Positions 38,340 to 58,168 are shown, counted from the first letter of the stretch. The stretch is DNA of 64,000 bases from Erythrobacteraceae bacterium (GCA_031399025.1 JANNOJ010000015.1:36306-100305), one strand, 5' to 3'. Made by a program: numbers and translations. The notes: generated by a model from the letters alone, not told the origin.

Positions 38340-38640
38340 AAGTTGGCGGGAGGCACGCGAAGGCGAGCGGGCGTGCCGCGAACGCTTGGTCGAACGCCGG
38401 CTCGAAGCCATGGCGCAAAGCAAGGTCGAGAACGAGCCGTTCGCCCGCGGCGCGCGCTTCGCCGAAAACGGGGTCGAACTGTCGCTGGGCATTGAGCGGG
38501 TGTGGGCCACCCCCGCCTCGGCGCGGGGCTGCCGGTCGATCGTTGCCGAGCTGGGAGGTCCCAGCCCGTGAGTGTCAGATTGGCCATGATCCAGCTCGCC
38601 GCAGCCGTCATCGACTCACGCTTAGAATCGTGCATCCCTA
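38340..38640 (+). mobile_element. short relic of an IS5-family transposase 3' end
   Basis: RERLVERRLEAM... in one frame and VRLAMIQLAAAVIDSRL in another. The last ~45 nt align by eye with the reverse complement of 9654-9700 (catgatccagctcgccgcagccgtcatcgactcacgct vs catcatccagctcgccgcagccgtcatcaactcacgct). Confidence 0.4.
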
Positions 38641-38901
38641 GGGCGTTGGGGCGGCAGCGGAGCTTGAAGCCGGAGACATCGCAGTCATGCTGGCCAGCGC
38701 GGCAGCGGATGAGGCCGTCTTTGTCGGCAAGCGAGCGCGCGCCTCGCTGGGGGCCGATCGGCACGGCCTCGCGAATGGGCGCGGGGCGGCCGGGAATGCG
38801 CCAAACGGCGTATCCCCTTAGCTGCGCCGCGGGCTGATGGTGCCCCGGTCCGGTGTATGCCCGCCGCATGGACTGGCATTGTGGGGGTGACAAAGACGGG
38901 C

Positions 38902-40494
38902 ATGACGCAACCACCGCATTTCGCCATCAGCAAGCGCGACCTGCTGGCCATGATCGGCAAATCGGCCGGCGCCACCGCGATGCTGATGGCCATGGCGCCG
39001 CTCGGCCAGGCCCATGCGTCGACCTTCACCGGGCCGATTAAGCTCGAAGGCGGCGCCAAGGGAGCCTCGGTCGTCATTCTTGGAGCGGGTCTGGCCGGAA
39101 TGGTCTCGGCGCTGGAGCTGAGCCGCGCGGGCTACCGGGTGCAGGTGCTGGAGTTCAACCCGAAGGTCGGCGGCAGGACGTGGTCGCTGCGCGGCGGCGA
39201 CAGCTACACCGAGCTGGGCGGTCATACGCAGACCTGCACCTTTGCCGACGGCAATTACCTCAACCCCGGCGCCTGGCGCATTCCCACCGAGCACGGCGGG
39301 GTGATCCATTATTGCAACGAGCTGGGCGTGGCGCTCGAGCCGTTCCAGCAGAACAATTACAACGCCTATGTCCATTCGACCAAGGCGTTCGGCGGCAAGC
39401 CGCAGCGCTTCAAGACGATCCAGGCGGATTATCACGGCCATGTCGCCGAGCTGCTGGGCAAGGCGGTCAAGCAGAACGCGCTCGACGATGCGGTAACGGC
39501 CGAGGATGCCGAGATCCTCATGGAATCGCTGCGCGACTGGGGCGCGCTCGACCGTGACATGCGCTATGTGAAGGGCACTGCCTCGGCCCGCCGGCGCGGG
39601 TGGGAAAAGGGCCCCGGCGGCGGGCTGACCGCGGTGCCCATCCCGTCCGAGCCGCTCGACCTGGCCACCGTGCTCAAATCGGGCCTGTGGGAGAGCCTGG
39701 GCGGCCACCTCACCAACGAGCACCAGCAGGCGATCTTCCAGCCCGTGGGCGGCATGGACCAGATCGCGGTCGGCTTCGAGCGCGCGATCGGCTCGCTGGT
39801 GCGCCTCAACAGCAAGGTCACCGCCATCCGCCAGGACGATGCCGGCGTGAGCGTGGAATATCTCGACACGGTGACGGGCGAACGGCTCACCGCGCAGGCC
39901 GATTACTGCATCAACACCATCCCGCTCTCGATCCTGGCGCAGATCCCCATGAATGTCGGCGGGCCGATGGCCGCGGCGATCCGGGCGGTGCCCTATGGCC
40001 CGAGCGTGAAGGTGGGGCTGGAATTCAAGCGCCGCTTCTGGGAGCAGGACGAGCAGATCTACGGCGGCATCACCACTACCGACCTCCCCAATTCGCAGAT
40101 CTCCTATCCCAGCTCGGGCTATGGCTCCAAGGGTCCGGGGGTGTTGCTGGGCGCCTACGTGGGCGGCGCCACCTCCTACGAGCTGTCCTCGCTGCCGCCC
40201 CAGGAGCGCGTGGCCAAGGCGCTCGAATGGGGCGCGAATATCCACCCGCAATATCGCGACGAGTTCGTGAGCGGCATCTCGGTCGCCTGGCACCGCGTGC
40301 CCTGGACGCTGGGCTGCTCGGGCCGGTGGACCGAGGAGACGCGCGCCGCGCATTACCACAATCTGTGCGAGATCGACGGGCGCATCGTGCTCGCCGGCGA
40401 GCACGCCTCCTATATCGGCGCGTGGCAGGAAGGCGCGGTGACCTCAGCGCTCGATGCGATCGGGCGGCTGCATCACCGTGTCCAGGCGGCCTGA
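38902..40494 (+). CDS. flavin monoamine oxidase-family protein with Tat-like signal (paralog 1)
   Basis: MTQPPHFAISKRDLLAMIGKSAGATAMLMAMAPLGQAHA leader (KR variant of the twin-Arg motif). FAD fold VVILGAGLAGMVSALEL..VLEFNPKVGGR. C-terminal RIVLAGEHASYIGAWQEGAVTSA. About half the positions match paralog 2 by eye. Confidence 0.85.
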   Translation: MTQPPHFAISKRDLLAMIGKSAGATAMLMAMAPLGQAHASTFTGPIKLEGGAKGASVVILGAGLAGMVSALELSRAGYRVQVLEFNPKVGGRTWSLRGGDSYTELGGHTQTCTFADGNYLNPGAWRIPTEHGGVIHYCNELGVALEPFQQNNYNAYVHSTKAFGGKPQRFKTIQADYHGHVAELLGKAVKQNALDDAVTAEDAEILMESLRDWGALDRDMRYVKGTASARRRGWEKGPGGGLTAVPIPSEPLDLATVLKSGLWESLGGHLTNEHQQAIFQPVGGMDQIAVGFERAIGSLVRLNSKVTAIRQDDAGVSVEYLDTVTGERLTAQADYCINTIPLSILAQIPMNVGGPMAAAIRAVPYGPSVKVGLEFKRRFWEQDEQIYGGITTTDLPNSQISYPSSGYGSKGPGVLLGAYVGGATSYELSSLPPQERVAKALEWGANIHPQYRDEFVSGISVAWHRVPWTLGCSGRWTEETRAAHYHNLCEIDGRIVLAGEHASYIGAWQEGAVTSALDAIGRLHHRVQAA

Positions 40495-40498
40495 GCCC

Positions 40499-40957
40499 AT
40501 GACCATCCCCCGTAAGCTCGCACTCCGCGCCGCCTCGGCCACGGCGCTCGCTCTCCTCGGCGCGACCGCGCTGGCGCAGGAGACGGCGCCCATCGGCCCC
40601 GCCGTCGCCGGGCCGGTCGTGGGCGAAGCGCAAGCCGCCGCGATCGCCAGCAACGCCCCGCGCTTCACCCAGACCTCGGGCGAGGACCTGTACATGAACG
40701 TGTGCGCCGCCTGCCACATGCCCGACGGTCAGGGCGCGCAAGGAGCCGGCTTCTACCCTTCGCTGGCCGGCAACCCGAAGCTCGCCGCCGGCGCCTACCC
40801 CGCCTACGTCGTGCTCAAAGGCATGAACGGGATGCCCGCGGTGGGCGAGATGATGGACGATGCGCAGGTGGCCGAAGTGGTCAATTACGTGCGCACCCAT
40901 TTCGGCAACGACTTCGATACGCCGATGCAGCCTGCGGACGTGGCCGCGCTGCGCTGA
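40499..40957 (+). CDS. monohaem class-I cytochrome c (partner of paralog 1)
   Basis: Sec signal MTIPRKLALRAASATALALLGATALAQ. Haem site CAACH. Distal Met region GMNGMPAV. Starts 4 nt after the oxidase stop. Confidence 0.85.
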   Translation: MTIPRKLALRAASATALALLGATALAQETAPIGPAVAGPVVGEAQAAAIASNAPRFTQTSGEDLYMNVCAACHMPDGQGAQGAGFYPSLAGNPKLAAGAYPAYVVLKGMNGMPAVGEMMDDAQVAEVVNYVRTHFGNDFDTPMQPADVAALR

Positions 40958-40979: not shown

Positions 40980-41399
40980 CTAGCCTTCGGGCGACGTCGC
41001 GCCGGCGATCGCCGCCACCTCGGCCGCCGTCACCGGCTCGGGATAATCGTTGAACTCGGTGCGCACGTGGGTGAGCACCGCGGCGATCTGCTCGGGGGTC
41101 AGGATGTCGGTGAACCACGGCATGCCGGCGCGCCCCTTGGCCATGATCTCAATGATGTAGGCCTTGTCGGCCATGCGCGGGTTGTCGGCCAGCGCCGGGA
41201 TGCCCGTGCCTGCCCCCGCCCCGCCCATGGCATCGGCCATGTGGCACGATTGGCAGATCTGCTGATAGACCTGCCCTCCCTCGCTGGCGATCTGCACCGA
41301 GGCGGTGCCGCCCGGCCCGTCCTGCGCGCGCGGGGCGTGCGCGGGCACGGCCAGCGCGGATGCGCCCACGGCGAGCGTGGCGGCGAGACGCGCCCTCAT
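40980..41399 (-). CDS. monohaem class-I cytochrome c (partner of paralog 2)
   Basis: 139 aa. Signal MRARLAATLAVGASALAVPAHA. Haem site CQSCH. GRAGMPWF Met region. ATG overlaps the TGA of the upstream oxidase gene. Confidence 0.85.
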   Translation of the reverse strand: MRARLAATLAVGASALAVPAHAPRAQDGPGGTASVQIASEGGQVYQQICQSCHMADAMGGAGAGTGIPALADNPRMADKAYIIEIMAKGRAGMPWFTDILTPEQIAAVLTHVRTEFNDYPEPVTAAEVAAIAGATSPEG

Positions 41400-42988
41400 G
41401 CGGCGAGCGCGCGGGTGTGCAGCTGCTCGATGGCGTTGAGCGCCGAGAGCAGCGAGCCTTCCATCCAACCGCCGTAATAGGTGGCATGTTCGCCCGCGAG
41501 CGCGATGCGACCGTCCATGGTGACGAGGTTGGTGTAATGCGCCGCGCGGCTGTCCTCGGTCCAGCGCGCGGTGCAGCCCTGGATCCACGGCATGCGGCTC
41601 CAGGCGATCGAGGCGCCGCTGACGTATTCGCGGCGATATTCCTCGGGGTGGAAGACCGATCCCTGCTCCAGCGCCAGCTCGATCCGCTGCTCGGGCGTCA
41701 TCCCCGCCAGCTGGAACGCGCCCGCGCCGCTGGCGAAGGCGCCCAGCAAGACCGCCGGGCCATCCTGGAAATAGTTGAAATTGGGGTATGAGATGAGCGA
41801 GATCGCCTGGTCGGTGAAGCTGTGTCCGCCATAGATCGAGTAGTTCTTCTCCCAGAAGCGGCTCTTCATCTCGAGGCCGATCTTCACCATGCTGCTCATC
41901 GGCACCGCGCTGATCGCCGCCTTGGTGGCATCGCTCACCTGCACGTCGAGCTGGCTGAGGATCGTGGGCGGGATCGTGCACACGCACCAGTCGGCCTGCG
42001 CCTGGCCGGTCTCGCCGGTGACGGTGTCGGTCCAGCTGGCCGTGACCCCCCGCTCGCCCTGCGCCAGCCGCGTGACGCGGGTATTCATCCGCACCATCGG
42101 CTTGATTTCATTGAAGAAGCCCTGGGCGATCATGTCCATGCCGCCCTTGGGCTGGAACATGGTGGTCTGCATCACGTAGTTGAAATAGAAGTTCATCTGC
42201 GTCCAGACGTTGCTCGCCAGCACGTCGGTGAGACTGTTGACCGACGAGGCGCTGGGCGCGCCGACGAGACCGCCGCCGGGCGGGGTGTCGTAGCCGCGCT
42301 GGGCCGAGGTCTGGATCGAGCTGGTATAGGCCAGGTTCTCGTCGAGCAGGCCCCATTCGCGCATGGCGACGAGCAGCTTCTCCTTGTCCTCGGTGGTCAC
42401 TTGGCTGTCGAGCGCGCCGGCGTTGAGCGACTTGGAGAGCAGCTCGGAGACGTGGCCCTTGAAGTCCACCGCCAGCTCCTTGTAGCGCTGCGGCTTGCCG
42501 CCGAAGGCGTTGGTGCGGTGGACGAAGGTGTTGGTGTTGTTCTGGATGAACGGCTCCAGCTCAACTCCGAACGCCTTACAATAATGCAGCAAGGTGCGGT
42601 GGTGGTGCGGGATGCGCCAGGGCCCGGGGTTGAGGTAATTGCCGGGTGAGTAGGTGACCTGCTGGGTAGCCCCGCCCACCTCGACCACCCGGTCGCCCCC
42701 GCGCAGCGTGTAGCAACGGCCGCCGACGCGGTCCTGGTATTCGAGCAATTGCACGCCGTAGCCGGCCTTGGCCAATTCGTAAGCCGCCAGCATCCCGGCC
42801 AGACCCGCACCCAGCACCAGCACGCTGGCGCCGGGCCGCGCGCCGGTGAGCGCGGGCGGCCCGCTGAACTGCGATTCCGCCGCGTGGCCCAGCACGGTCA
42901 TCGCCTGGTACATCGCCAGGCCGCCGCCGATCGTGCCGATCATCGACAGCAGCTCGCGGCGGGTGGGCACGTAATCGGGGAGGCTCAT
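41396..42988 (-). CDS. flavin monoamine oxidase-family protein with twin-arginine signal (paralog 2)
   Basis: MSLPDYVPTRRELLSMIGTIGGGLAMYQAMTVLGHAA (TRRELL Tat motif). VLVLGAGLAGMLAAYEL..LLEYQDRVGGR. C-terminal RIALAGEHATYYGGWMEGSLLSA. Confidence 0.9.
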   Translation of the reverse strand: MSLPDYVPTRRELLSMIGTIGGGLAMYQAMTVLGHAAESQFSGPPALTGARPGASVLVLGAGLAGMLAAYELAKAGYGVQLLEYQDRVGGRCYTLRGGDRVVEVGGATQQVTYSPGNYLNPGPWRIPHHHRTLLHYCKAFGVELEPFIQNNTNTFVHRTNAFGGKPQRYKELAVDFKGHVSELLSKSLNAGALDSQVTTEDKEKLLVAMREWGLLDENLAYTSSIQTSAQRGYDTPPGGGLVGAPSASSVNSLTDVLASNVWTQMNFYFNYVMQTTMFQPKGGMDMIAQGFFNEIKPMVRMNTRVTRLAQGERGVTASWTDTVTGETGQAQADWCVCTIPPTILSQLDVQVSDATKAAISAVPMSSMVKIGLEMKSRFWEKNYSIYGGHSFTDQAISLISYPNFNYFQDGPAVLLGAFASGAGAFQLAGMTPEQRIELALEQGSVFHPEEYRREYVSGASIAWSRMPWIQGCTARWTEDSRAAHYTNLVTMDGRIALAGEHATYYGGWMEGSLLSALNAIEQLHTRALAA

Positions 42989-43035: not shown

Positions 43036-43542
43036 TCAGGGCGCGGTGGCGGCGATCGCCTCGATCTCGACATACATCCCCGGGCGACCCAGCGCGGCGA
43101 TCTGGATGGTCGAGCGGGTCGGGCGGTTGGGCTGTTCGGGGGTGCCGAAGAAGGTGCGGAACACCTCGTTCATCGCGGCCGAGTCCATCCGCCCCTCGGT
43201 CTCGGGCGTGCCGACCAGGAACACGGTCATCTTGACCACGTCGCCCATATCCATCCCCATGCCTTCCAGCGTCGCCTTGATCTTGGTCAGCACCGACAGC
43301 GTCTGCTGGCGCGTGTCACCCAGATTTTCCGGCACGGCGGGATCGAGCGGGGAGGGCGTGGTGCCCGAGATGAAGACGATGCGGCTGTCTGCCGGCAGCG
43401 AGGCGGTGCCGGCGATGGTTGCGGTGGGGCTGTTGTAGGTCCGCTCGATCTGCGCGGCGGCTTCCTGCGCCAGGGCGCCGCCGCTCGGGAGGGCCAGCGC
43501 TACCGGCAGGGCGGCAAGGGCAAGGGCAAGGATGTGGCGCAT
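43036..43542 (-). CDS. RidA/YjgF/UK114 (Rid) family protein with signal peptide
   Basis: 168 aa. MRHILALALAALPVALALPSGGALAQ leader. Rid core ISGTTPSP...GDTRQQTLSVLTKIKATLEGMGMDMGDVVKMTVFL...PTRSTIQIAAL...VEIEAIAA. The Arg equivalent to the imine-deaminase Arg is present (PTRS). Confidence 0.8.
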   Translation of the reverse strand: MRHILALALAALPVALALPSGGALAQEAAAQIERTYNSPTATIAGTASLPADSRIVFISGTTPSPLDPAVPENLGDTRQQTLSVLTKIKATLEGMGMDMGDVVKMTVFLVGTPETEGRMDSAAMNEVFRTFFGTPEQPNRPTRSTIQIAALGRPGMYVEIEAIAATAP

Positions 43543-43618
43543 GCAAGGGGTTCCCGTCTCAGTCATTCGTGCAACGAAGGCGGGCGACCTCAAGGAAGGG
43601 CGCCCGCGGGCGATCATG

Positions 43619-46252
43619 TCAGAAGTCCACGGCGATGCGGGCGTAGTAATAGCCGCCGTTCGTGCCGTATGGACCGAAGGTGTACGGCGCGTTGATTACG
43701 CCCGAATTGTTGATGTAAGGCGAGCGGCCATTGAAGCCGACTGTCCCGGATGTGGGGTCGGCCGCATTATAATCTGCTACAAGTGGTGGGACTTCGGGTA
43801 TCTTGTCGAACAGGTTGTTTGCGCCCACTGTCACCGTGAAAAACTCGGTTAGGTCATAACTCAATTCCAGATCCACGATGGCCGTGGACTCCACCACTGC
43901 CTCGTAATAGCGTCCCTCGATAGGTGCTTGAGTGGTGGAATTCGAGTTCGGCTCCACCAATTGAGTTGTGTCGGAATACCAGTTCACGCGGGCATTCGCA
44001 CTGAAGGGACCGGACTGGAAAAAAGCGCCAAGGTTGACCTTGAAGTCCGGGCTGGCGCGTTCGACCGTGTCTTCGGCGGTGATGGTCCACAGCGTGCCGA
44101 GCGAACTGCTGTCAGTCACCCTGGTCTTGTTGTAGTTTGCACCCAGCGACAGATCCACTGTTCCGAAGGGCAGGTCGACCGGATAGCGGGCGGCCAGTTC
44201 AGCGCCGGTAGTTTCGGTGTCGATCCCGTTGGTGAAGGTCTGGATCGCCAAGGTGCCTGTCGCCAGCACGGTGGGGTCGAGTTGCTTGCCGCTGGCCTCG
44301 ATGGCGTCGAGCACCAGCTGATACGGGGTCAGGCCGTTGATCAGCGGAGTCAATACCTGGGTGGGGGGTGAGTTTGTACCGACATACCGTTGACCGGTGA
44401 TCGCGCCGGAAGACACGATCCGGTCGTTGATCTTGATGTAATAGCCATCAAGCGTCACCACCAGCCGGTCGATCGGGCGGATCACCGTACCCACTGAGAA
44501 GTTGAGCGATTCCTCCGGCCCAAGCGAGCCGAACCCGGCGCTAGCCGCACCGGATGAACTCGGCGCGAGTTGCAGCGTTGCCGAAGTGGGGCCGACATTG
44601 GTGGCCGAATAGCCCTGTTCCGCCAGGGTCGGGGCGCGGAAGCCGGTGCTGGCGGTGGCGCGCAGCGCGAACGCGTCGGAGAAATCATAGCGGGTGGTGA
44701 TCTTGCCGATCAGCGCGTCGCCGAAATCGCTATAGTCCTCGTACCGTCCGGCGAGGTCAACGGTCCAGCCTGCCAACGGATCGGAGATGAAGTTTACATA
44801 CACCGCCCTGGCCGTGCGATCGATCGTGCCTGCATCGGTGGCGGAATAGCCGGGGAAGGACTGGCCGCCCTCAACGTAAAGCGAAAGGTCGTCGCCCTGG
44901 AAGATCGTGTAGGTTTCGTCACGGAATTCGGCGCCGAAGGCGAATGTCAGCGGCTCGTTCAAGCCGATCTCGAACTCCTTGTTGACGTCGAGCGTGCCGA
45001 CAAACTGGTTGAACTGGAAGCCGCCATCGTAAAAGTCGGTCGGCGATTGGCCGGTATCGACATAGAGCGACGCGTTAACCGATTCGGTGGTGTAAACCTG
45101 CGCCACGTCTTCCGCATAGGTCCCGGACAGGTCCCAAAGCCACCCGCCCGCTTCACCCTCAATTCCGGTGGTGAGCGAGAATTCGTCCTGAAACACCTCG
45201 ATATGCGGCACCAGGCCGGTCTGCGCGGTGTTGGCAAAGCACTGGGTCGGGTCGTTGGTTTGCGCCACGTATCTATCTTGAGCAGCGTCATATCTGCGGC
45301 ACACGCGGGTCGGCACGCGGTAGCCCTGCAGCGCGTCACCGCTGCGGAATGAGACGTCCCCGAACGAGTAGACGTCGACCCCGCCGAAATCATAACCGAA
45401 GTTGAAGAAACCAACCGTCAACTGCGATGCGGGCTGACCGCCGTTGATGTTCGCGGTACCGCCATTGTCGGCCAGCTCCTGATAGATCGACGCGAACGCA
45501 GGAGCGACGGCGGCATTGGGCGTGCCGTCCACTCCTACCACTGAGATCTGCCCGTCGCCCTGCGTGGTCACATCATTGCGGCGATGTTGTAGGGCGAGAT
45601 CGAGGAAACCAGCATCGCCTACCTCGAGACCGAAATTCCCGCTGAGATTGTAGGTCCGCCCTTCACCGTCATAATACTCGCCAGCCGACCCGCGGAGCGC
45701 GGCGCCCGAGGTATCGCTCTTCAGGATGATGTTGATGACGCCGGCAATCGCATCCGATCCGTACACGGCGGCGGCGCCGTCCTGCAGGATCTCGATGCGC
45801 TCGATGATGTCGGGCGGGATGAGGTCGAGGCTGGGCGCGGCCGAGCCGCCGAAGGCGCCGTTGATGACCTGGAGGATGGCGTTGCCGTGGCGGCGCTTGC
45901 CGTTGACCAGCACCAGCGTGTGGTTGGGGCTGAGACCGCGCAGACGGGCAGACAGCGAGAAGCTCGCCATGTCGGTGCCCTGCGTCTGCGCCTGGAATGA
46001 GGGGACGAGCTGGGTCAGCGCCTGGTTGAGGTTGGGCTGGCCGACCCGGGAGAGCGCGTCTTCGGAGAGCAGCTGGATCGGCGCGGCGCTGTCGGCGGCG
46101 ATCTGGCCTGCAGCGCGGGTGCCGGTGACGATGATGACTTCCGCTTCAGCGACAGCGTCGGTGGTCGCCGTATCGTCCTGCGCGCGGGCGGTGGTGGAAA
46201 GGGCAGTCGAGGCAAGAAGTGCAAGTGCAATCGGTCGGGCAATACGCGACAT
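43619..46252 (-). CDS. TonB-dependent receptor
   Basis: 877 aa. Signal peptide, plug domain (VIIVTGTRA..., [29 protein letters not shown]), long beta-barrel, terminal aromatic residue (...ARIAVDF). Confidence 0.92.
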
Positions 46253-46540
46253 TAGGTGGACCCCCCCATTTGGTTTCCTCGCTCTCCCTTGCTGAGCCGC
46301 ACGGCGGTGCTTTGATTTGTCTCTGGTTCATCGCTGCCTGCCCCGGCAGATGCGATCTCGGACACACCGGCTTGATGGCTGCTATCCAACCGATCGGCCG
46401 CACAAAGCCCATACGCCGATGTGCGTAGGGCTACCTGGCGAGGGTGGATGATAGGCACGCCCTGAATTTATCGAGGCTTTTCTATCGTGCGGCGGGCGTG
46501 CCGCGCCGTAGCGGAAAGCCCAGCACAGGGGAGGCCCGAA

Positions 46541-47059
46541 ATGATTGCCAGAACGTTTCCGATTGCCGCGCTGCTCGCCTGCGCCGCCGCGCTGCCCGCC
46601 CCGGCGGCGGCCGAGGGCGAGGTCATCCGCATCCAGCGCAATCCGGGCGCCTTCATCCTCGAGGCGGCGCGGGTTAACGCAGGCGCGGACGTGATCTACG
46701 TCTCGGGCCAGCTGCCCTCGCCGATCGACCCGGCCATGCCGATGAGCGAGGTGACCAGCATCGAGCAGATGGGCGACACCCGGACGCAGACCATCAGCAC
46801 TTTAGCCAAGATCCGTGACATTCTGGCAACACAGGGCTTCACCATGGGCGACGTGGTGAAGTTGACGCTGTTCGTGATGGCCGATCCGGCCACCGGGGAA
46901 ATGGATTTCGCCGGGGTCAACCAAGGCTTCCGCCAGTTCTTCGGGACGGCGGACAACCCCAATACGGTGGCGCGCTCGACCTTCGAGGTCGCCGGGCTGG
47001 TCGGTCCGCATTACCTGATCGAGATCGAGGCCATCGCCGCCCGCGCCCCGGCGCCCTGA
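46541..47059 (+). CDS. RidA/YjgF/UK114 (Rid) family protein with signal peptide (second copy)
   Basis: 172 aa. MIARTFPIAALLACAAALPAPAAA leader. VSGQLPSP...GDTRTQTISTLAKIRDILATQGFTMGDVVKLTLFV...VARSTFEVAGL...IEIEAIAA. GGGGAGG RBS. Divergent from the receptor gene. Confidence 0.8.
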   Translation: MIARTFPIAALLACAAALPAPAAAEGEVIRIQRNPGAFILEAARVNAGADVIYVSGQLPSPIDPAMPMSEVTSIEQMGDTRTQTISTLAKIRDILATQGFTMGDVVKLTLFVMADPATGEMDFAGVNQGFRQFFGTADNPNTVARSTFEVAGLVGPHYLIEIEAIAARAPAP

Positions 47060-47410: not shown

Positions 47411-47631
47411 AGCAGACCGGCGTCGATGCCGACATTACGCACTTACAGCATGAGAATGGCGGAATTCCAAGGTTTCTTTGGCAAAATGCGCTTGCGTCAC
47501 GGCAGGCGCGCGCCTACTTTGGGATCAGCGCATAAGAACGCAGGACCGGCCCGATGACGAATTCGCCACGGAGCCTGGCAGATGCGCCGGTAGATAGTTG
47601 AACAAAATAGCGATATTGCAGGAGAGTGAGC

Positions 47632-47943
47632 ATGAAAGTCATTAGCACGGCGATTCTCGCCGCGGGCCTTTTGGCCGTCGCATCCGCCGCTACGGCGGGC
47701 GAGCGTGAAGCCGTTTCGCTCCGGATCGATACCAGCGGCGTCAACTTCGCCGATCCGGTAGCGGTCGCCGCGTTCCATCGTCAGGTGGAGCGCCAGATCG
47801 AAGCGGTGTGCAACCCGGGTGACCGGATTAACTCCGACACCAAGCCCGACTTTGCGTGTCGCAAGGAAATGGCCGCCAGCCTGGACCCCACGCTCTACCA
47901 ATTGGCCGCACGCGCCAGCGGGCGCCGGATCGCCGGTTCCTGA
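47632..47943 (+). CDS. UrcA-family small secreted protein
   Basis: MKVISTAILAAGLLAVASAATAG signal, then VSLRIDTSGVNFADPVAVAAFHRQVERQIEAVCNP......CRKEM with two Cys, the usual UrcA layout. GGAGAG RBS 6 nt upstream. Confidence 0.6.
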   Translation: MKVISTAILAAGLLAVASAATAGEREAVSLRIDTSGVNFADPVAVAAFHRQVERQIEAVCNPGDRINSDTKPDFACRKEMAASLDPTLYQLAARASGRRIAGS

Positions 47944-48077: not shown

Positions 48078-49001
48078 CTATTGCTCGATGACCCGGACGG
48101 CAATGGCTGCCGCCGCAGAGCGGGTTTCCACGCCCAGCTTCTCGAAAACGTGCTCGAGATGCTTCTGCACGGTCCGCGGGCTGATCTGCAGCACATCGCT
48201 GATGTCGCTGCTCGACTTGCCGTAACTGACCCACAACAGTACCTCCGCTTCGCGCCGGGTGAGGCCGAGCATGGCCGCCAGCCGTTCTATATCCTTGCGC
48301 GGGTTCAACTCGTTGAGCCGGATCAGCACTTCGTTCTCGCGGTAACGCGCCACCAGCACTAGCTCCACCATTCCATCGGGCGAGGCCCGGTCCACCCGCA
48401 CGCTGGCGCCGGTCGCGCCTGACGACAGCAGCCGCTCCAGCGGCGCGAGCAGCGCCGGCGGCAGGGCTTTGGCGCGCGACCAGCCGGGCACCAGCCGCGA
48501 CACTGCCGCTTCCGCACGCGGGGTGCACCATAGCAGGCTGCCGCGGGCATCGGTGGCCAGCATCAGCCGGCCGGTGGCATCGAGGCTGGCGGCGCTGGCG
48601 TGGGCCGCGCGGCCTTGCGCCATGTGCACCCGCACCCGGGCGAGCAATTCGGTGAGGTTCACCGGCTTTTTGACATAGTCCACCCCGCCGACCTCGAATG
48701 CCTCCACCACATGTTCGCTTTCAGTCAGCCCGGTCATGAAGATCACCGGGATCCCGGTAAGGCGGGGATTGCGCTTGATCCTCACGGTGGTCTCGAACCC
48801 GTCGATGCCCGGCATCACCGCATCGACGATGATCAGATCGGGCAGGAATCGGTCGAGCAGCTCGAGCGCGTTTTCGCCCGAGGTCGCAATCAGCACGGTG
48901 ATGTCCGCGCTTTCCAGCGTGTCGGTGATGACATGCAGCGATGCCGGCTCGTCATCGATCACCAGCACGGTGTCGGAGTGGCCGGGAATGGATGGTATCA
49001 T
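48078..49001 (-). CDS. response regulator: receiver + central domain + LuxR-type HTH
   Basis: 307 aa. VLVIDDEP...LIIVDAVMPGIDG...VIFMTG...YVKKP (intact receiver). C-terminal LTRREAEVLLWVSYGKSSSDISDVLQISPRTVQKHLEHVFEKLGV. ATG overlaps the kinase TGA. Confidence 0.85.
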   Translation of the reverse strand: MIPSIPGHSDTVLVIDDEPASLHVITDTLESADITVLIATSGENALELLDRFLPDLIIVDAVMPGIDGFETTVRIKRNPRLTGIPVIFMTGLTESEHVVEAFEVGGVDYVKKPVNLTELLARVRVHMAQGRAAHASAASLDATGRLMLATDARGSLLWCTPRAEAAVSRLVPGWSRAKALPPALLAPLERLLSSGATGASVRVDRASPDGMVELVLVARYRENEVLIRLNELNPRKDIERLAAMLGLTRREAEVLLWVSYGKSSSDISDVLQISPRTVQKHLEHVFEKLGVETRSAAAAIAVRVIEQ

Positions 49002-50821
49002 GCGCTCTCCAGCAGCTTGGCCATGCCGGCGAGATCGAACTCGTCCAGCGCGGCATAGAGCGCGCTCACCAGCCGGCCGTGGTTTGGCGCCGCGGTGCCC
49101 AGCATCGCGATCTCGGCCTCGATACCGCGCACATGGCCGATCTGGATGCGCTCGAGCAGCCGCTCGACATGCGCCCTGGCATTTGCCGGCAGCCCGCCGG
49201 GCGGCGGATCGACCGCCTCGCCAGCGCCGCCGGTTGCTTCCCATTTCCAAGAAAAATGCAGCAGCGCGGCGATCACTTCGGCCATCTCGTTCAGCCGATA
49301 TGGCTTGACGAAGAAGTGATCGTGCATCGGCCGGTCATATTGCGGGCGCTGGAATTCCTGCGAATTGGCCGAGGCCATGACGATGACCAGATCCGGTGCC
49401 GGCTCCGACCTCCCGGCGGGGCGCGCACGGGCGCGCAGGTGACTGGCGACATCCCAGCCGGACATTCCAGGCAGGCTGATATCGAGCACGGCGAGGTCGA
49501 AGTTGCGCGTGTCGCACAGCGCCACCGCGCTTTCGCCATCGGCCAGCGACACCACCTCCAGCCCGCAACCCGCCAGGAAGCTCTCCAGAAAGCCGCGCTG
49601 GTCGGCATCGTCGTCCACCAGCAGAACGGATCGGCGCGGGCCCTCATAGCCGGTGATTCGCCGGTGGATGGTTCCCCGCGCTTGCGCATTGGTCGGTTCC
49701 GCCAGCATCAGGGTGACGCGGAAGCAGGCGCCGCGGCCAGGCTCGCTCTCCAGTTCCAGATTGCCGCCGAGGATCTCGATTATTGCCTTGGTGATCGGCA
49801 GGCCCAGGCCGACGCCGGGGCGCACGTGGCGATCGGTCTTGTCCACCTGCTCGTAAGGATCGAAGATGCGTTGCTGGTTCTCCGGCGCGATGCCGGGGCC
49901 GGTGTCGGTGATCTCGATAGTGCCGATCTGGCCGCGATAGGCGAGGCGCATGGTCACCGTGCCGGCATCACTGAACTTGATCGCATTGCCGATGAGGTTG
50001 ATCAGCGCCTGGCGCAGCCGGTTCTGATCGGTGCGGACGAACTCGGGCGTCCAGGTGGTGGCCTCGTAGACGAAGTCCAGTCCCTTAGCCTCCGCGGCGG
50101 GGCGCATCATCAGCACGATCTGATCGATAAAATCGGGCAGCCGGACGATCTCGCTGCGCACCCGCAACATGCCGTGCTCCAGCCGCGAGATGTCGAGCAG
50201 GCTTTCGATGAGGCTGGTCATGTGTTCGGCGCAGCGGCGGATGATGCGCGCTGCCTCCTGTGGCCGCACGTCGGTTTCCTGTTCCACCAGCTGGGCATAG
50301 CCATAGATGGCGTTGAGCGGCGAGCGGATCTCGTGGCTGATATTCTCCAGATAACGGGTCTTGGCGAGGTTAGCGGCGTCGGCGTTCTCCATGCCGCGCC
50401 GGGCGGTCTCCATCCTCGCCGTGAGTCCGGCCACTTGCATGATGCGCAGGCGCAGCACGCGATAGCTGAGCACCGCCGCGCTGAAGCTGACCACGATCCC
50501 GATGACGATGATCTGGTGCAGCGACGTGCCATCCCTCGGGAGCGCGATCTCCAGCCCCAGCATCAAGGCATCGAGCAGCAGCGCGATCAGGATCAGGCCG
50601 ATGGCGAGCGGGGCCAAGACCTCGGGATTATCGAACTGGCGAAAAGCACCCTGGAAGCGGGGCTCTTCCGACCCCGCTGGCGGCGATACGGGCAGGTCGG
50701 CGGCGCTCGTCAACTCCGCCGGTCCGCGCGCGTGCGCACGGGAGCGGGTCCTGCCCCGGCGGCTCTCTCCTGCACTCTGTTTGACCCCGTCATCTGCCAA
50801 CCCGCGGGCGGTTTGCCGCAC
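48998..50821 (-). CDS. hybrid sensor histidine kinase/response regulator
   Basis: Two TM segments with a very short loop. H-box ISHEIRSPLNAI. ATPase boxes LINLIGNAIKF, DTGPGI, GVGLGL. Receiver SVLLVDDD...LAVLDISLPGMSG...FFVKP. C-terminal ~90 aa with GHVRG (possible HPt-like). Start (GTG 50821) uncertain. Confidence 0.85.
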   Translation of the reverse strand: MRQTARGLADDGVKQSAGESRRGRTRSRAHARGPAELTSAADLPVSPPAGSEEPRFQGAFRQFDNPEVLAPLAIGLILIALLLDALMLGLEIALPRDGTSLHQIIVIGIVVSFSAAVLSYRVLRLRIMQVAGLTARMETARRGMENADAANLAKTRYLENISHEIRSPLNAIYGYAQLVEQETDVRPQEAARIIRRCAEHMTSLIESLLDISRLEHGMLRVRSEIVRLPDFIDQIVLMMRPAAEAKGLDFVYEATTWTPEFVRTDQNRLRQALINLIGNAIKFSDAGTVTMRLAYRGQIGTIEITDTGPGIAPENQQRIFDPYEQVDKTDRHVRPGVGLGLPITKAIIEILGGNLELESEPGRGACFRVTLMLAEPTNAQARGTIHRRITGYEGPRRSVLLVDDDADQRGFLESFLAGCGLEVVSLADGESAVALCDTRNFDLAVLDISLPGMSGWDVASHLRARARPAGRSEPAPDLVIVMASANSQEFQRPQYDRPMHDHFFVKPYRLNEMAEVIAALLHFSWKWEATGGAGEAVDPPPGGLPANARAHVERLLERIQIGHVRGIEAEIAMLGTAAPNHGRLVSALYAALDEFDLAGMAKLLESA

Positions 50822-51049: not shown

Positions 51050-51478
51050 TCAGCCGCTCGGTTCCGCCGCGTCGAAATCAATCCGCCGCAGCGCGCGCGG
51101 TTCATCGGGCAGAGCGCGGCTTCCGGCAGGCGCGCCGTTGGCCTGCAGGATGAAGGCGATCACGCGGGCATTGTCCTGCGCCGACAAGGTGCCGGGCGCA
51201 TGTTGCGGCATGGCCCGGGCAATATAGTCGAACAGCTCGCCCACCGGCCGCCCGCCCCAATTGGCGACGAATTTGCCGACCAGGCCAGGTGTCTCCACCG
51301 TGCCTTCCAGCTGCCCGCCGTGACACATCGCGCATTGCCGCGCATAAAGCTGGCCGCCTTCCGCGGCCTGGAGTGCGGTATAAACGCCGTCGGCGCTGCC
51401 GCGGCCCGCCGCCGGCCCGCCGCCGACCGCCACCAGCGCCACCGCCCCCGCCAGGCTGGTCAGAAGCGGTTGCCTCAT
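51050..51478 (-). CDS. monohaem cytochrome c (partner of the DAAO-like flavoprotein)
   Basis: 142 aa. Signal MRQPLLTSLAGAVALVAVGG. Haem site CAMCH. ARAMPQH Met region. ATG overlaps the TGA of the upstream flavoprotein gene. Confidence 0.8.
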   Translation of the reverse strand: MRQPLLTSLAGAVALVAVGGGPAAGRGSADGVYTALQAAEGGQLYARQCAMCHGGQLEGTVETPGLVGKFVANWGGRPVGELFDYIARAMPQHAPGTLSAQDNARVIAFILQANGAPAGSRALPDEPRALRRIDFDAAEPSG

Positions 51479-52749
51479 GCCGCGTCCGCTTGCATGGTGA
51501 GCGGGGCGAACAGCGGGGCCAGCGCCGCCAGCGCCTCCTCGATCGGCGCGCGTGCGGGCAGTTCGGTGCTGTCGCCCACGCCCAGCATATCACCCAGATC
51601 GGGATTGTTGTTCATCAGGACGATGCCGTCCGCCTTGGACAGCAGCGACATGTTGCGCGAGCGCAATGCGTAATTCGCCTCCGGTTGCGGCACCAGCCAG
51701 CCGGTCTGGCCGCGCACCGGGATCACCGAGCGGTCCTGCCACAGGTCGCGCGCCGAATAGCCGGTGGCGTGGATCACCACCGGCTCGGGCAGTTCGCCCA
51801 ACTCCCCGGGCGAGTGAAAATTGCGCATCTCGAACTTGCCCCCGCGGCTGAAGAACTCGTCCAGCAGCAGGTTTCCGTAAGCGGGAAAGTTGAAATACAT
51901 CTGCGAGGTGCGCGTGGCGAACGGCGTGGCGAACGGGTTTTCCTCGGGCATCAGGGGTACCGCTTGCGGCACGATGTCGCGGATGCGCGAATCCAGATGA
52001 GCGAATTCGCTGTTCTGGTGCGGTTGCCCGGTGGTGTCGTAGCTGTCGCTGATCGCCGGGTCGGGTTCCCAGACGCGGCGGGTGATCGGCTCGTGCGACA
52101 CCGCATAGCTGTCGCCGAAAGCCACCGGATCGCCCGGCAGACCCAGCATCGTGCGGAACATCTTCCACGAGAACCGCGCCATCTGCTCCCACTGATAGGG
52201 AAACTGCGCGCCCGCGGGGCCGGCCAGGGCAATCCGCGAGCCGGGGGTGTAGGAGCCGCTCGCCCGCATCGAGCGGGTGCGGAAGAACTGCTCGCGGGCG
52301 TAGATCGTCACCTCCAGCCCGGCGCGCTGAGCGACGATTGCCGACGTGAGCCCGATGATCCCGCAGCCGACCACGGCGATCCGCTCGGGCAGCACCGACA
52401 GCGCCTTGCCCACCGCCACTTCGGCCGATCCCCAGGACAGCGACCAGCCGCTGCCGCCATGGCCGTAATTGTGGATCACCAGCCGGTCGCCGACCGTCTC
52501 GGTACCCAGGTTCGGCCCGGCCGCGCGCAACGGGCGGATGCAGCACTTGAGATCGATGAGCTGGTCGAGCGAGACCCGCATCGGCACCAGCTGCGGGCGG
52601 CTGCCGGCGGGCGCGGCCTGCATTGGTGAGGATTGGGCGCGAAGCGGCGCGGGCAAGGCCAGCGCGCCCGCCGCGCCGAGCACGCCCTTGATCACCGCGC
52701 GCCGCTCGCTGTGGATTTCGGCGGTTCGATGGTGTGGCAAGTGGCTCAA
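51475..52749 (-). CDS. Tat-signal FAD-dependent oxidoreductase, D-amino-acid-oxidase-like, apparently circularly permuted
   Basis: 424 aa. SERRAVIKGVLGAAGALALPAPLRA Tat leader. VIHNYGHGGSGWSLSWG (normally the DAAO C-terminus) at residues ~91-107, followed by the dinucleotide fold IAVVGCGIIGLTSA at ~124-137. PVRGQ later. TTG start. Confidence 0.8.
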   Translation of the reverse strand: MSHLPHHRTAEIHSERRAVIKGVLGAAGALALPAPLRAQSSPMQAAPAGSRPQLVPMRVSLDQLIDLKCCIRPLRAAGPNLGTETVGDRLVIHNYGHGGSGWSLSWGSAEVAVGKALSVLPERIAVVGCGIIGLTSAIVAQRAGLEVTIYAREQFFRTRSMRASGSYTPGSRIALAGPAGAQFPYQWEQMARFSWKMFRTMLGLPGDPVAFGDSYAVSHEPITRRVWEPDPAISDSYDTTGQPHQNSEFAHLDSRIRDIVPQAVPLMPEENPFATPFATRTSQMYFNFPAYGNLLLDEFFSRGGKFEMRNFHSPGELGELPEPVVIHATGYSARDLWQDRSVIPVRGQTGWLVPQPEANYALRSRNMSLLSKADGIVLMNNNPDLGDMLGVGDSTELPARAPIEEALAALAPLFAPLTMQADAA

Positions 52750-57700: not shown

Positions 57701-58168
57701 GCCGGCTACCTCAAGACCGGCCAGCCCGAGCCGGTCTCGATGCCCGTGTTCATCGGCCTGCTGATGCTGCTGGGGATCGTCGGCAAGAACTCGATCCTGC
57801 TGATCGACTTCGCGCTCGAGGAGATGGAGACCGGCAAGCGCAAGCGCGACGCCATCCTCGAAGCGGGCCACAAGCGCGCTCAGCCGATCGTCATGACGAC
57901 GATCGCCATGATCGCCGGCATGATACCCACCGCGCTCTCGCTCGGCGGCGATTCGGCCTGGCGCGCGCCGATGGGCACGGTCGTGATCGGTGGCCTGATG
58001 CTGTCGACCGTGCTGACGCTGCTGATCGTGCCCGCGGGCTTCAGCCTGGCCGACGGGATGGAGAAGAAGCTGGGCCCCTGGCTGCGCGACCGGTTCCTGA
58101 CCTACCGTCCGGGCGACGAGCGGAAGGGGGGGCATCGCCCCGCGCCGGAGCTGCAGCCCGCTGAGTGA
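54746..58168 (+). pseudogene. RND (AcrB/HAE1-type) efflux permease interrupted by one in-frame TAG at 55970-55972
   Basis: ORFs 54746-55972 and 55979-58168 are in the same frame. Together they form a colinear ~1140-aa RND permease. The stop sits in the conserved TM4-proximal motif: LVDDAIVDI(TAG)[15 protein letters not shown]. Confidence 0.8.

What the first reader, a model, noticed from the sequence alone, without database searches (positions are those of the whole stretch)
43036..47059. Signal-peptide RidA homologs and a TonB-dependent receptor in the same unit: candidate complete periplasmic oxidative-deamination module
Seen: the minus-strand string is TonB-dependent receptor (46252-43619), 76-nt gap, RidA-family protein with a cleavable-looking leader (43542-43036), 47-nt gap, Tat flavin amine-oxidase paralog 2, then an overlapping cytochrome c. 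A second leader-bearing RidA-family gene (46541-47059) is divergent from the receptor across a 288-bp shared control region. Both Rid proteins keep the Arg of the P-x-R-S motif. Established: RidA/YjgF/UK114 proteins hydrolyse reactive imine/enamine intermediates, including imino acids released by FAD-dependent amino-acid oxidases, and that Arg is required for the activity. Characterised RidA proteins are cytosolic or mitochondrial. Inference: the proposed sequence is (1) outer-membrane uptake; (2) periplasmic flavin-dependent C-N oxidation, with electrons passing to cytochrome c; (3) RidA-accelerated imine hydrolysis to a carbonyl product plus ammonia. All steps would occur outside the cytoplasm. 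I am not aware of a described system combining these four parts. Exported RidA paralogs alone are unusual.
Basis: partly seen in the sequence, partly recalled or inferred. Interest (0 to 1): 0.8.

Follow-up and report, generated by a model that had tools for sequence, protein, structure and literature searches.

The report
Periplasmic amino-acid dehydrogenase module with exported Rid3
The genes are real and form a widely conserved unit (outer-membrane receptor, exported flavin amine/amino-acid dehydrogenase, its own cytochrome c, exported Rid3 imine deaminase) that probably oxidises amino compounds in the periplasm. Three of the four parts were already described together in Gluconacetobacter, so this is an extended variant, not a new kind of system.

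Summary
Both Rid genes belong to the Rid3 subfamily: the best solved relatives are PSPTO3006 and PFL1385, which have shown imine-deaminase activity. Both carry classic Sec leaders. Such leaders are the rule in this family, in 66 of 92 diverse representatives by a strict heuristic and in essentially all 93 genomic copies inspected. Exported Rid proteins are therefore common but little discussed.

The oxidases resemble Rhodococcus L-amino-acid oxidase, carry Tat motifs and are translationally coupled to Sec-exported c-type cytochromes. That is the published signature of cytochrome-c-using flavoprotein amine dehydrogenases (NicA2/Pnao-CycN).

Among 60 genomic Rid3 loci with full flanks, 53 have the oxidase within 6 kb, 38 a cytochrome c, 42 a full-length homologue of this receptor, and 24 all three. 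Gene order is shuffled across Alpha- and Gammaproteobacteria.

The mechanistic reading is well supported by comparative genomics but not shown biochemically. The novelty claim is overstated. A lao-cccA-ridA operon is described in Gluconacetobacter diazotrophicus, Chlamydomonas has a periplasmic LAAO plus RidA pair, and Rid3-amine oxidase clustering was noted in 2015.

New here are the conserved receptor link, the family-wide export signal, and a three-enzyme island that includes a permuted D-amino-acid-oxidase-like enzyme.

The parts
43619..46252 (-). TonB-dependent outer-membrane receptor (877 aa), first gene of the minus-strand string. Sec leader ...TTARA|QDD.
   Evidence: Plug and barrel domains. 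Full-length homologues (250-1280 bits) lie next to Rid3/oxidase genes in 42 of 60 loci.
43036..43542 (-). Rid-A: exported Rid3-subfamily imine deaminase homologue (168 aa). The leader is about residues 1-25 and the domain starts at about residue 30.
   Evidence: PF01042 7.3e-20. Best PDB hits are the Rid3 proteins PSPTO3006 (5e-31) and PFL1385 (7e-29). In the AF2 model residues 1-3 and 17-27 have pLDDT <50 (block means 50, 49 and 45 for residues 1-30), and Foldseek's top hits are 9bka and 9bkc. R143 and E159 are conserved.
41396..42988 (-). Flavin amine oxidoreductase 2, LAAO-like (530 aa), with the Tat motif T-R-R-E-L-L.
   Evidence: PF01593 1.1e-52. Rhodococcus LAAO 2jae at 2.8e-80 over residues 53-527. 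The Tat motif is conserved in orthologues.
40980..41399 (-). Monohaem c-type cytochrome 2 (139 aa, CQSCH, Sec leader). Its start overlaps the oxidase 2 stop by 4 nt.
   Evidence: PF13442 and PF00034. The same 4-nt overlap appears in an independent gene call.
46253..46540 (.). 288-bp divergent intergenic region between the receptor and Rid-B.
   Evidence: No promoter consensus was found. It holds the 12-mer GGGCGTGCCGCG, which also occurs upstream of oxidase 1.
46541..47059 (+). Rid-B: second exported Rid3 paralogue (172 aa), 46% identical to Rid-A.
   Evidence: PF01042 2.3e-16. PFL1385 at 6e-31. Paralogue comparison. Orthologues keep the same divergent position in L004-L019.
38857..40494 (+). 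Flavin amine oxidoreductase 1 (LAAO-like paralogue, 51% identical to oxidase 2), with a K-R variant of the Tat motif (S-K-R-D-L-L).
   Evidence: The KR motif is conserved in orthologues L008, L009, L014, L017, L019 and L054.
40499..40957 (+). c-type cytochrome 1 (152 aa, CAACH), starting 4 nt after oxidase 1 ends. Convergent with cytochrome 2.
51475..52749 (-). Tat-leader (S-E-R-R-A-V-I-K) flavoprotein of the DAO family, circularly permuted relative to D-amino-acid oxidases. Third dehydrogenase of the island.
   Evidence: PF01266 5.7e-18. Segment order against DAAO structures. Conserved with the island in L004-L013 and L018.
51050..51478 (-). c-type cytochrome 3 (142 aa, CAMCH), overlapping the DAO-family gene by 4 nt.
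48998..50821 (-). Hybrid histidine kinase, a likely regulator of the island.
   Evidence: Orthologues carry HisKA, HATPase_c and Response_reg and sit in the same position.
48078..49001 (-). LuxR/GerE-type response regulator. The probable start is M84 of the ORF, giving 307 aa and a 4-nt overlap with the kinase stop.
   Evidence: Orthologues of 303-311 aa carry Response_reg + GerE. ORF.
47626..47943 (+). Small exported UrcA-family protein, conserved inside the island in Erythrobacteraceae.
   Evidence: TIGR04433 5.3e-11. Orthologues in L002-L010.

Best explanation
This is a periplasmic oxidative-deamination module.

1. A TonB-dependent receptor brings an amino compound across the outer membrane. 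This is most likely L-amino acids or small derivatives of them, with D-amino acids served by the permuted DAAO-like enzyme of the same island.
2. A Tat-exported, FAD-loaded enzyme of the LAAO type oxidises the C-N bond to an imine (imino acid).
3. Instead of making H2O2, the enzyme passes the electrons to its own translationally coupled, Sec-exported c-type cytochrome, and from there to the respiratory chain.
4. The exported Rid3 protein speeds hydrolysis of the released imine to the 2-oxo acid plus ammonium. This limits side reactions of the imine in the small periplasmic volume.

The hybrid kinase and LuxR-type regulator next door probably control the island.

Shown here: gene anatomy, family assignments, catalytic residues, leader and Tat motifs, and conserved linkage.

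Inferred: export itself, cytochrome c as the electron acceptor, Rid action on the oxidase product, the receptor's cargo, and the identity of the substrate.
For: Anatomy and coupling
- Gaps of 76 and 47 nt and a 4-nt overlap. No terminator-like hairpin lies in those gaps.

Rid3 identity
- PSPTO3006 scores 5e-31 and PFL1385 7e-29, against 6e-12 for TdcF.
- The fold match agrees.
- These two Rid3 proteins hydrolyse LAAO-generated imino acids and DauA-generated iminoarginine in vitro (PMC5619798).
- The Arg and Glu are conserved.

Export
- 66 of 92 diverse family representatives pass a strict signal-peptide heuristic, as do 74 of 93 genomic copies; the remainder look like signal peptides by eye.
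- Leaders vary in sequence but end in AxA directly before the conserved (D/E)-I/V-x-R start of the domain.

Oxidases
- LAAO-like at 2.8e-80. The Arg of G-x-W-R-I-P aligns with the carboxylate-binding Arg of the Rhodococcus enzyme (the residue's role is from my memory).
- 62 of 72 neighbouring oxidases have a twin-arginine motif.

Cytochrome c as acceptor
- A Tat signal plus an adjacent cytochrome c gene predicts cytochrome-c-using dehydrogenases in this superfamily, verified kinetically for 25 enzymes (PMC12224317).
- Cytochrome c maturation (ccm) mutants and lao mutants of G. diazotrophicus both lose the LAAO-dependent product (PMC5053998).

Linkage
- Of 60 Rid3 loci with at least 6 kb on both sides, 53 have the oxidase, 38 a cytochrome c, 42 the receptor homologue and 24 all three.
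- 30 loci in all carry the four parts, in at least five gene orders. They come from Sphingomonadales, Caulobacteraceae, Nitrospirillum, Azospirillum, Rhodocista, Rheinheimera, Alteromonas, Pseudoxanthomonas and Solimonas.
- The whole island is syntenic in Altererythrobacter and Alteraurantiacibacter.
Against: - There is no biochemical or localisation data for any of these proteins.
- Free amino acids normally pass through porins, so a TonB-dependent receptor is not obviously needed.
- The Xanthomonas loci have oxidase-cytochrome-Rid but no receptor within 6 kb. Several Sphingomonas loci have oxidase-receptor-Rid but no detectable cytochrome c. The four parts are therefore not obligatorily linked.
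- The island encodes no inner-membrane transporter for the oxo acid or ammonium.
- Oxidase 1 has K-R rather than R-R in its Tat motif.
- Oxidase 2 has Phe where the Rhodococcus enzyme has the carboxylate-binding Tyr (alignment; residue role from memory), so its substrate may not be a plain alpha-amino acid.
- Signal peptides were judged by a home-made heuristic, not by SignalP.
Confidence: 0.55

Rival explanations
1. The enzymology is the same, but the real cargo is a larger or scarcer nitrogen compound that needs active outer-membrane transport. Examples are peptides, amino-acid conjugates, polyamine-like or alkaloid amines. The Rid3 proteins would then hydrolyse imines other than simple imino acids.
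For: The receptor link is conserved. Oxidase 2 lacks the Tyr aligned to the carboxylate-binding Tyr of Rhodococcus LAAO. Substrates of most Tat/cytochrome-c amine dehydrogenases are unknown (PMC12224317). Nicotine clusters also combine a Rid gene, a TonB-dependent receptor, cytochrome c and an amine oxidase (PMC7688666).
Against: The closest solved relative is a broad-range L-amino-acid oxidase, and the carboxylate-binding Arg is kept. The island also has a DAAO-like enzyme. The homologous G. diazotrophicus enzyme acts on tryptophan in vivo.
Confidence: 0.22
2. The cluster's physiological output is a signalling or secondary product rather than nutrition. An example is indole-3-pyruvate leading to auxin, as for the lao-cccA-ridA operon of G. 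diazotrophicus.
For: The only genetic phenotype known for a homologous cluster is loss of IAA production (PMC5053998). Chlamydomonas LAO1/RidA also yields IAA.
Against: This island has three dehydrogenases, a receptor and a two-component system. It occurs in many free-living aquatic and soil oligotrophs, which fits scavenging or respiration better. IAA formation may be a side effect of broad specificity.
Confidence: 0.08
3. The flavoenzymes are true periplasmic oxidases that make H2O2 (antimicrobial LAAO type). The cytochromes and Rid proteins would serve protection rather than respiration.
For: Some Tat-exported members without an adjacent cytochrome c react fast with O2 (PMC12224317). Several Rid3 loci lack a detectable cytochrome c. 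A katG gene lies 8 kb away.
Against: Here all three flavoprotein genes overlap or abut their own cytochrome c gene. That paper found this to be the stronger predictor of dehydrogenase function.
Confidence: 0.08
4. The Rid3 proteins are not catalysts here. They would be structural or chaperone-like partners of the dehydrogenase, like the non-catalytic M-beta subunit described for Chlamydomonas LAAO, or would have another activity.
For: A Chlamydomonas LAAO/Rid complex has been reported (as cited). Rid3's in vivo role is unknown (PMC4433059).
Against: The catalytic Arg and Glu are nearly invariant across the family. Two Rid3 proteins are active deaminases in vitro.
Confidence: 0.07

Closest known systems
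lao-cccA-ridA operon of Gluconacetobacter diazotrophicus PAL5 (GDI2456-2454; PMC5053998)
   Same: Tat-signal LAAO, cytochrome c and RidA genes lie in one transcription unit. The authors proposed that the three work together and predicted a periplasmic location for the LAAO, and they noted conservation in Caulobacter and Xanthomonas. Peptides encoded by the published primers fit this Rid3/LAAO family at matching positions: ASTIYL at residues 48-53 and KLGKID at 113-118 of RidA, and YPSHGYF at 404-410 of LAAO (my inference).
   Different: No TonB-dependent receptor is described there, and no signal peptide was noted on its RidA. It has a single oxidase. The phenotype studied is auxin production. 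The window has two LAAO-type units, a DAAO-like unit, two Rid3 genes and a two-component system.
NicA2/Pnao-CycN and other cytochrome-c-using flavoprotein amine dehydrogenases (PMC12224317, PMC9396064)
   Same: A Tat-exported amine oxidoreductase with an adjacent Sec-exported cytochrome c as physiological electron acceptor.
   Different: These belong to different clades of the superfamily (NicA2-related, not LAAO-like). No Rid or receptor partner is described, and the substrates are nicotine metabolites or unknown.
Rid3 subfamily proteins PSPTO_3006 and PFL_1385 (PMC5619798; PDB 9bka, 9bkc)
   Same: Closest relatives by sequence and fold. The Arg/Glu active site is shared. They show in vitro hydrolysis of imino acids made by LAAO and by DauA.
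   Different: They were studied as soluble recombinant proteins. Localisation and physiological partners were not addressed. PSPTO_3006 as deposited (144 aa) seems to lack the leader.
Chlamydomonas reinhardtii periplasmic LAO1 + LAO2/RidA (PMC10805672)
   Same: An extracytoplasmic LAAO paired with a Rid protein, used to scavenge ammonium from external amino acids.
   Different: It is eukaryotic. It is an O2-using oxidase that releases H2O2. It has no cytochrome c and no outer-membrane receptor.
Cytoplasmic amino-acid dehydrogenase + Rid2 pairs of Pseudomonas (DauA/iminoarginine, DadA-DadY; PMC5619798, PMC9714295)
   Same: A flavin amino-acid dehydrogenase releases an imino acid that a dedicated, co-encoded Rid protein hydrolyses.
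   Different: Those pairs are cytoplasmic or inner-membrane-associated and use the Rid2 subfamily. Electrons do not go to a dedicated periplasmic cytochrome c.
TonB-dependent-receptor utilisation loci of Xanthomonas, Caulobacter and sphingomonads (own knowledge, e.g. CUT loci)
   Same: A receptor gene clustered with periplasmic catabolic enzymes and a regulator for scavenging a nutrient.
   Different: The known examples handle carbohydrates, aromatics, vitamins or metals. They usually include an inner-membrane transporter, which is absent here.

Membership tests
Rid (YjgF/YER057c/UK114) family, Rid3 subfamily | PF01042 domain above the gathering score | tested here: met
   71.6 and 60.3 bits against a cut-off of 27.3.
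Rid (YjgF/YER057c/UK114) family, Rid3 subfamily | Catalytic Arg (R105 of RidA/TdcF) and the conserved Glu (E120) | tested here: met
   Rid-B aligns R and E to TdcF. R143 and E159 of Rid-A are nearly invariant in 41 relatives.
Rid (YjgF/YER057c/UK114) family, Rid3 subfamily | Closer to Rid3 representatives than to RidA, Rid1, Rid2 or RutC | tested here: met
   Rid3 scores 5e-31 and 7e-29. TdcF/RidA scores 6e-12, PA5083 (Rid2) 5.5e-6 and RutC 6e-4. Foldseek ranks 9bka and 9bkc first.
Rid (YjgF/YER057c/UK114) family, Rid3 subfamily | Tyr17 of RidA replaced (Ile in Rid3, per Niehaus 2015) | tested here: inconclusive
   No Tyr is present at the aligned position, and an Ile (I43; invariant in the 4-, 9- and 20-sequence alignments A3, A2 and A5) lies two residues away. 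The loop alignment is not precise enough to decide.
Rid (YjgF/YER057c/UK114) family, Rid3 subfamily | Imine/enamine deaminase activity; homotrimer | not testable with these tools
   Needs a coupled semicarbazide assay and SEC or crystallography.
Cytochrome-c-using flavoprotein amine dehydrogenases (Tat FAO + adjacent CytC) | Flavin amine oxidoreductase domain | tested here: met
   PF01593 at 1.1e-52 and 1.1e-55.
Cytochrome-c-using flavoprotein amine dehydrogenases (Tat FAO + adjacent CytC) | N-terminal twin-arginine signal | tested here: met
   Oxidase 2 has T-R-R-E-L-L. Oxidase 1 has the K-R variant S-K-R-D-L-L. The motif was found in 62 of 72 neighbouring homologues. This is motif-based; no TatP or SignalP was run.
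Cytochrome-c-using flavoprotein amine dehydrogenases (Tat FAO + adjacent CytC) | Operonic c-type cytochrome with a Sec leader and CxxCH | tested here: met
   There are three such pairs, with a 4-nt overlap or a 4-nt gap.
Cytochrome-c-using flavoprotein amine dehydrogenases (Tat FAO + adjacent CytC) | Slow reoxidation by O2 and fast reoxidation by the cognate cytochrome | not testable with these tools
   Needs stopped-flow kinetics.
L-amino-acid oxidase type (Rhodococcus opacus LAAO-like) | Full-length similarity and the carboxylate-binding Arg/Tyr | tested here: inconclusive
   2jae scores 2.8e-80 over residues 53-527 and the Arg is conserved. The aligned Tyr is Tyr in oxidase 1 but Phe in oxidase 2. 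Residue roles are recalled from memory, not checked.
lao-cccA-ridA cluster (G. diazotrophicus type) | LAAO, cytochrome c and Rid genes co-directional and adjacent | tested here: met
   Window genes 43542-40980. Recurs in 36 of 60 loci.
lao-cccA-ridA cluster (G. diazotrophicus type) | Orthology to GDI2456/2455/2454 | tested here: inconclusive
   The only evidence is indirect: primer-encoded peptides match family motifs at the expected positions.
TonB-dependent receptor | Plug + 22-strand barrel domains and a signal peptide | tested here: met
   PF07715 1.5e-19 and PF00593 9.5e-32. Leader ending ARA|QDD.

The most novel reading that the evidence does not exclude
Rid3 is, as a family, a periplasmic imine deaminase. 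Its native job is to serve Tat-exported, cytochrome-c-linked amino-acid/amine dehydrogenases fed by a dedicated TonB-dependent receptor. Together they form a widespread 'periplasmic amino-acid respiration and ammonium-scavenging' module in oligotrophic Alpha- and Gammaproteobacteria. In it, both L- and D-amino compounds are deaminated outside the cytoplasm without H2O2 release.
Probability: 0.45. Interest if true: 0.65.

Novelty: new variant of a known kind. Interest (0 to 1): 0.5.

Why it matters

Two results give that question a concrete, testable answer. Rid3 proteins almost always carry export leaders. They also sit beside Tat-exported LAAO-type dehydrogenases, dedicated cytochromes c and a specific receptor family.

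This extends the recent finding that many 'amine oxidases' are cytochrome-c dehydrogenases into the LAAO clade.

It also suggests how oligotrophs could gain both energy and ammonium from external amino compounds without importing them.

Tried and rejected
A 4-sequence alignment worked.
- The promoter and terminator scans were uninformative. Counts were not above shuffles, and no site fell in the relevant gaps.
- I searched for a shared regulator site in the island's intergenic regions. It gave only one exact 12-mer shared by the regions upstream of oxidase 1 and Rid-B. With one mismatch allowed, the window-wide count is at chance level. I treat this as unproven.
- The exact-sequence cluster look-up returned no names or organism. 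Taxonomy rests on the nearest loci (Altererythrobacter and Alteraurantiacibacter, up to 79% identity).
- Four literature searches for a described receptor + LAAO + cytochrome c + RidA system found none. They did turn up nicotine clusters that hold all four gene types, with a cytoplasmic Rid6.
- Chance adjacency of the receptor is rejected. The neighbouring receptors are full-length homologues of one another and mostly co-directional.
- The longer 193-aa start for Rid-A is rejected on homologue lengths.

Full report
**Observation**

- The minus-strand string is a TonB-dependent receptor (46252-43619; Plug 1.5e-19, barrel 9.5e-32), a 76-nt gap, a Rid-family gene (43542-43036; PF01042 7.3e-20), a 47-nt gap, and a flavin amine oxidoreductase (42988-41396; PF01593 1.1e-52).
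- It ends with a c-type cytochrome (41399-40980; CQSCH) whose ATG overlaps the oxidase stop by 4 nt.
- A second Rid gene (46541-47059; PF01042 2.3e-16) is divergent from the receptor across exactly 288 bp. It has a strong Shine-Dalgarno sequence.
- The 168-aa start of Rid-A is supported by 120 close homologues of 152-175 aa.
- No terminator-like hairpin lies in the short gaps. The simple scans were not above background overall.

**What the Rid proteins are**

- The best solved relatives of both proteins are PSPTO3006 and PFL1385, at 5e-31/7e-29 for Rid-A and 8e-25/6e-31 for Rid-B. TdcF/RidA scores about 1e-9 to 1e-12 and Rid2 or RutC about 1e-4 to 1e-6.
- Those two proteins are the Rid3 representatives studied by Hodge-Hanson and Downs. 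They hydrolyse imino acids made by L-amino-acid oxidase and iminoarginine made by DauA (PMC5619798).
- The catalytic Arg and the Glu align with TdcF R105/E120 and are nearly invariant in 41 diverse relatives.
- An AlphaFold model (mean pLDDT 72.7) has residues 1-3 and 17-27 below pLDDT 50, with block means of 50, 49 and 45 for residues 1-30. The Rid fold starts at about residue 30. Foldseek ranks 9bka and 9bkc first.

**Export**

- Both window proteins have an n-region with Arg, a hydrophobic core and an AxA site (ALA|QE and AAA|EGE).
- The leader is a family trait. A full HMMER scan of 1.84 billion cluster representatives gave 1719 hits, 341 at or below 1e-10.
- Of 92 full-length representatives of 150-200 aa, 66 pass a strict signal-peptide heuristic. 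Most of the rest look like signal or lipoprotein leaders.
- In the alignment, the leaders vary in sequence but end in AxA directly before the conserved (D/E)-I/V-x-R start of the mature domain.
- Of 93 Rid ORFs in 80 genomic loci, 74 pass the heuristic and the remainder visibly have leaders.
- 'Exported Rid' is therefore common in genomes, although I found no paper that says so for bacterial Rid3.

**The oxidases and cytochromes**

- Oxidase 2 matches Rhodococcus opacus L-amino-acid oxidase (2jae) at 2.8e-80 over residues 53-527. Vertebrate LAAOs are the next hits.
- Oxidase 1 (38857-40494) is a 51%-identical paralogue.
- Oxidase 2 has T-R-R-E-L-L. Oxidase 1 has S-K-R-D-L-L, a K-R variant conserved in its orthologues.
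- Each oxidase is followed by its own Sec-leader monohaem cytochrome c.
- A third pair lies at 52749-51050. It is a Tat-leader DAO-family flavoprotein with a 4-nt-overlapping cytochrome c.
- Stull and co-workers showed kinetically that a Tat signal plus an adjacent cytochrome c gene predicts cytochrome-c-using dehydrogenases in this superfamily (PMC12224317). Their set was NicA2-related. It does not mention amino-acid oxidases, Rid proteins or receptors.

**Conservation**

- The whole island is syntenic in Alteraurantiacibacter, Altererythrobacter and several metagenome bins. Its order is: DAO-like + cytochrome, kinase, regulator, UrcA, Rid-B, then divergently receptor, Rid-A, oxidase 2, cytochrome, then convergently cytochrome, oxidase 1.
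- A scan of 185,579 species genomes found at least 556 Rid3 relatives. The best 80 loci span Sphingomonadales, Caulobacteraceae, Rhodospirillales-type genera, Xanthomonas, Pseudoxanthomonas, Rheinheimera, Alteromonas, Woeseia, Solimonas and others.
- tblastn with the window proteins was combined with a CxxCH-ORF search. Of the 60 loci with at least 6 kb on both sides, 53 have the oxidase within 6 kb (50 co-directional), 38 a cytochrome c, 42 a full-length receptor homologue and 24 all three.
- Thirty loci in all hold the four parts.
- Gene order differs between lineages: receptor-oxidase-cyt-Rid, Rid-oxidase-cyt-receptor, Rid-receptor-oxidase-cyt, oxidase-receptor-Rid and oxidase-cyt-Rid. That argues for selection on the association rather than inherited synteny.
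- The adjacent receptors are homologous over their full length, at 250-1280 bits.
- 62 of 72 neighbouring oxidases carry a twin-arginine motif.
- The combination is not obligatory. Xanthomonas loci lack the receptor and some Sphingomonas loci lack a detectable cytochrome.

**Mechanism**

The most likely mechanism runs in four steps.

1. The receptor takes up the substrate.
2. A Tat-exported LAAO-type dehydrogenase oxidises it to an imine.
3. Electrons pass to the coupled cytochrome c and on to the respiratory chain.
4. Rid3 hydrolyses the released imine to oxo acid and ammonium.

The presence of a DAAO-like enzyme in the same island supports amino acids as the substrate class, and L- and D-amino acids give the same imino acid. 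The receptor's cargo and the exact substrates remain inference. Oxidase 2 has Phe where the Rhodococcus enzyme has a carboxylate-binding Tyr (residue role from memory).

**Comparison with what is known**

- The closest described system is the lao-cccA-ridA operon of G. diazotrophicus. Two Tn5 insertions in lao abolish IAA production. The three genes are co-expressed. The LAAO has a predicted Tat signal. The authors proposed that LAAO, cytochrome c and RidA act together, and noted conservation in Caulobacter and Xanthomonas (PMC5053998).
- The primer sequences in that paper encode ASTIYL (RidA residues 48-53), KLGKID (113-118) and YPSHGYF (LAAO 404-410). These match this family's motifs at the positions expected for a leader-bearing Rid3 and an LAAO of this type. 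This is my inference.
- Niehaus et al. noted Rid3 clustering with FAD amine oxidases (PMC4433059).
- Chlamydomonas has a periplasmic LAO1 plus LAO2/RidA pair (PMC10805672).
- Nicotine clusters hold a Rid6 gene, a receptor, cytochrome c and an amine oxidase together (PMC7688666).
- No paper in the library describes the receptor-linked periplasmic four-part unit or the export of bacterial Rid3.
- RefSeq annotates such loci only generically.

**Verdict**

The mechanistic interpretation is well supported by comparative evidence but untested. The claim of a system without precedent is overstated. This is a new variant of a known kind. Its value is that it gives the Rid3 subfamily a concrete physiological context and extends cytochrome-c-linked amine dehydrogenases into the LAAO clade.

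Noticed in passing
window 51475-52749 (-), with cytochrome c 51050-51478 (-): The DAO-family Tat flavoprotein is circularly permuted relative to D-amino-acid oxidases. Residues 69-116 (IRPLR...HNYGHGGSGWSLSWG) match the C-terminal segment 315-372 of DAAO/DDO structures. Residues 122-155 match the N-terminal Rossmann segment 7-40. Residues 252-356 match DAAO 106-209. It is conserved with its cytochrome c in L004-L013 and L018.
   Followed up: partly
window 54746-58168 (+): An AcrB-type RND transporter is interrupted by an in-frame TAG at 55970-55972, inside the conserved VDDAIVxxEN motif (reads VDDAIVDI*TIVRHM). It is either a pseudogene or a sequencing error. Its membrane-fusion partner lies at 53515-54732. 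In L004/L005 an intact RND pair sits inside the island, between the two oxidase-cytochrome units.
   Followed up: partly
window 38369-38380 and 46494-46505: The exact 12-mer GGGCGTGCCGCG occurs only twice in the window, upstream of oxidase 1 and just upstream of Rid-B. It extends to GCGGGCGTGCCGC in both copies. With one mismatch allowed, the window-wide count is at chance level, so significance is unclear.
   Followed up: partly
window 38857-40494; loci L008, L009, L014, L017, L019, L054: The oxidase-1 lineage carries a conserved Lys-Arg (S/T-K-R-D/E-L-L) instead of the twin-arginine pair in its Tat-like leader.
   Followed up: no
L002/L003 9275-9919 and 10576-10856: In one metagenome lineage only fragments of the receptor (25% coverage, 75% identity), oxidase 2 and its cytochrome remain around the Rid genes: the receptor fragment lies between the two Rid genes and the oxidase 2 and cytochrome fragments just downstream of the Rid-A orthologue. 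The oxidase-1 unit is intact. This looks like local decay of the module.
   Followed up: no
proteins P0123-P0127, P0130, P0140, P0141, P0188: Proteins of about 400-650 aa with three tandem Rid domains are among the best hits. Several have signal or lipoprotein leaders. They could be single-chain versions of the Rid trimer.
   Followed up: no
L045, L052, L084, L040, L051, L059, L068 (between oxidase and Rid): In Gammaproteobacterial loci the small monohaem cytochrome is replaced by a CxxCH protein of about 200-260 aa (N-terminal motif YCLVCHG). It was not detectable by tblastn with the window cytochromes.
   Followed up: no
window 47626-47943 (+): A UrcA-family small exported protein (TIGR04433 5.3e-11) is conserved inside the island in Erythrobacteraceae. 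Its role is unknown.
   Followed up: no
L087 (Sphingomonas parapaucimobilis megaplasmid NZ_CP155750.1, 289452-294614): An oxidase-receptor-Rid3 trio lies on an 853-kb replicon listed as a plasmid. It is annotated only as FAD-dependent oxidoreductase / TonB-dependent receptor / RidA family protein. A second receptor and a tryptophan-halogenase-family gene are next to it.
   Followed up: no
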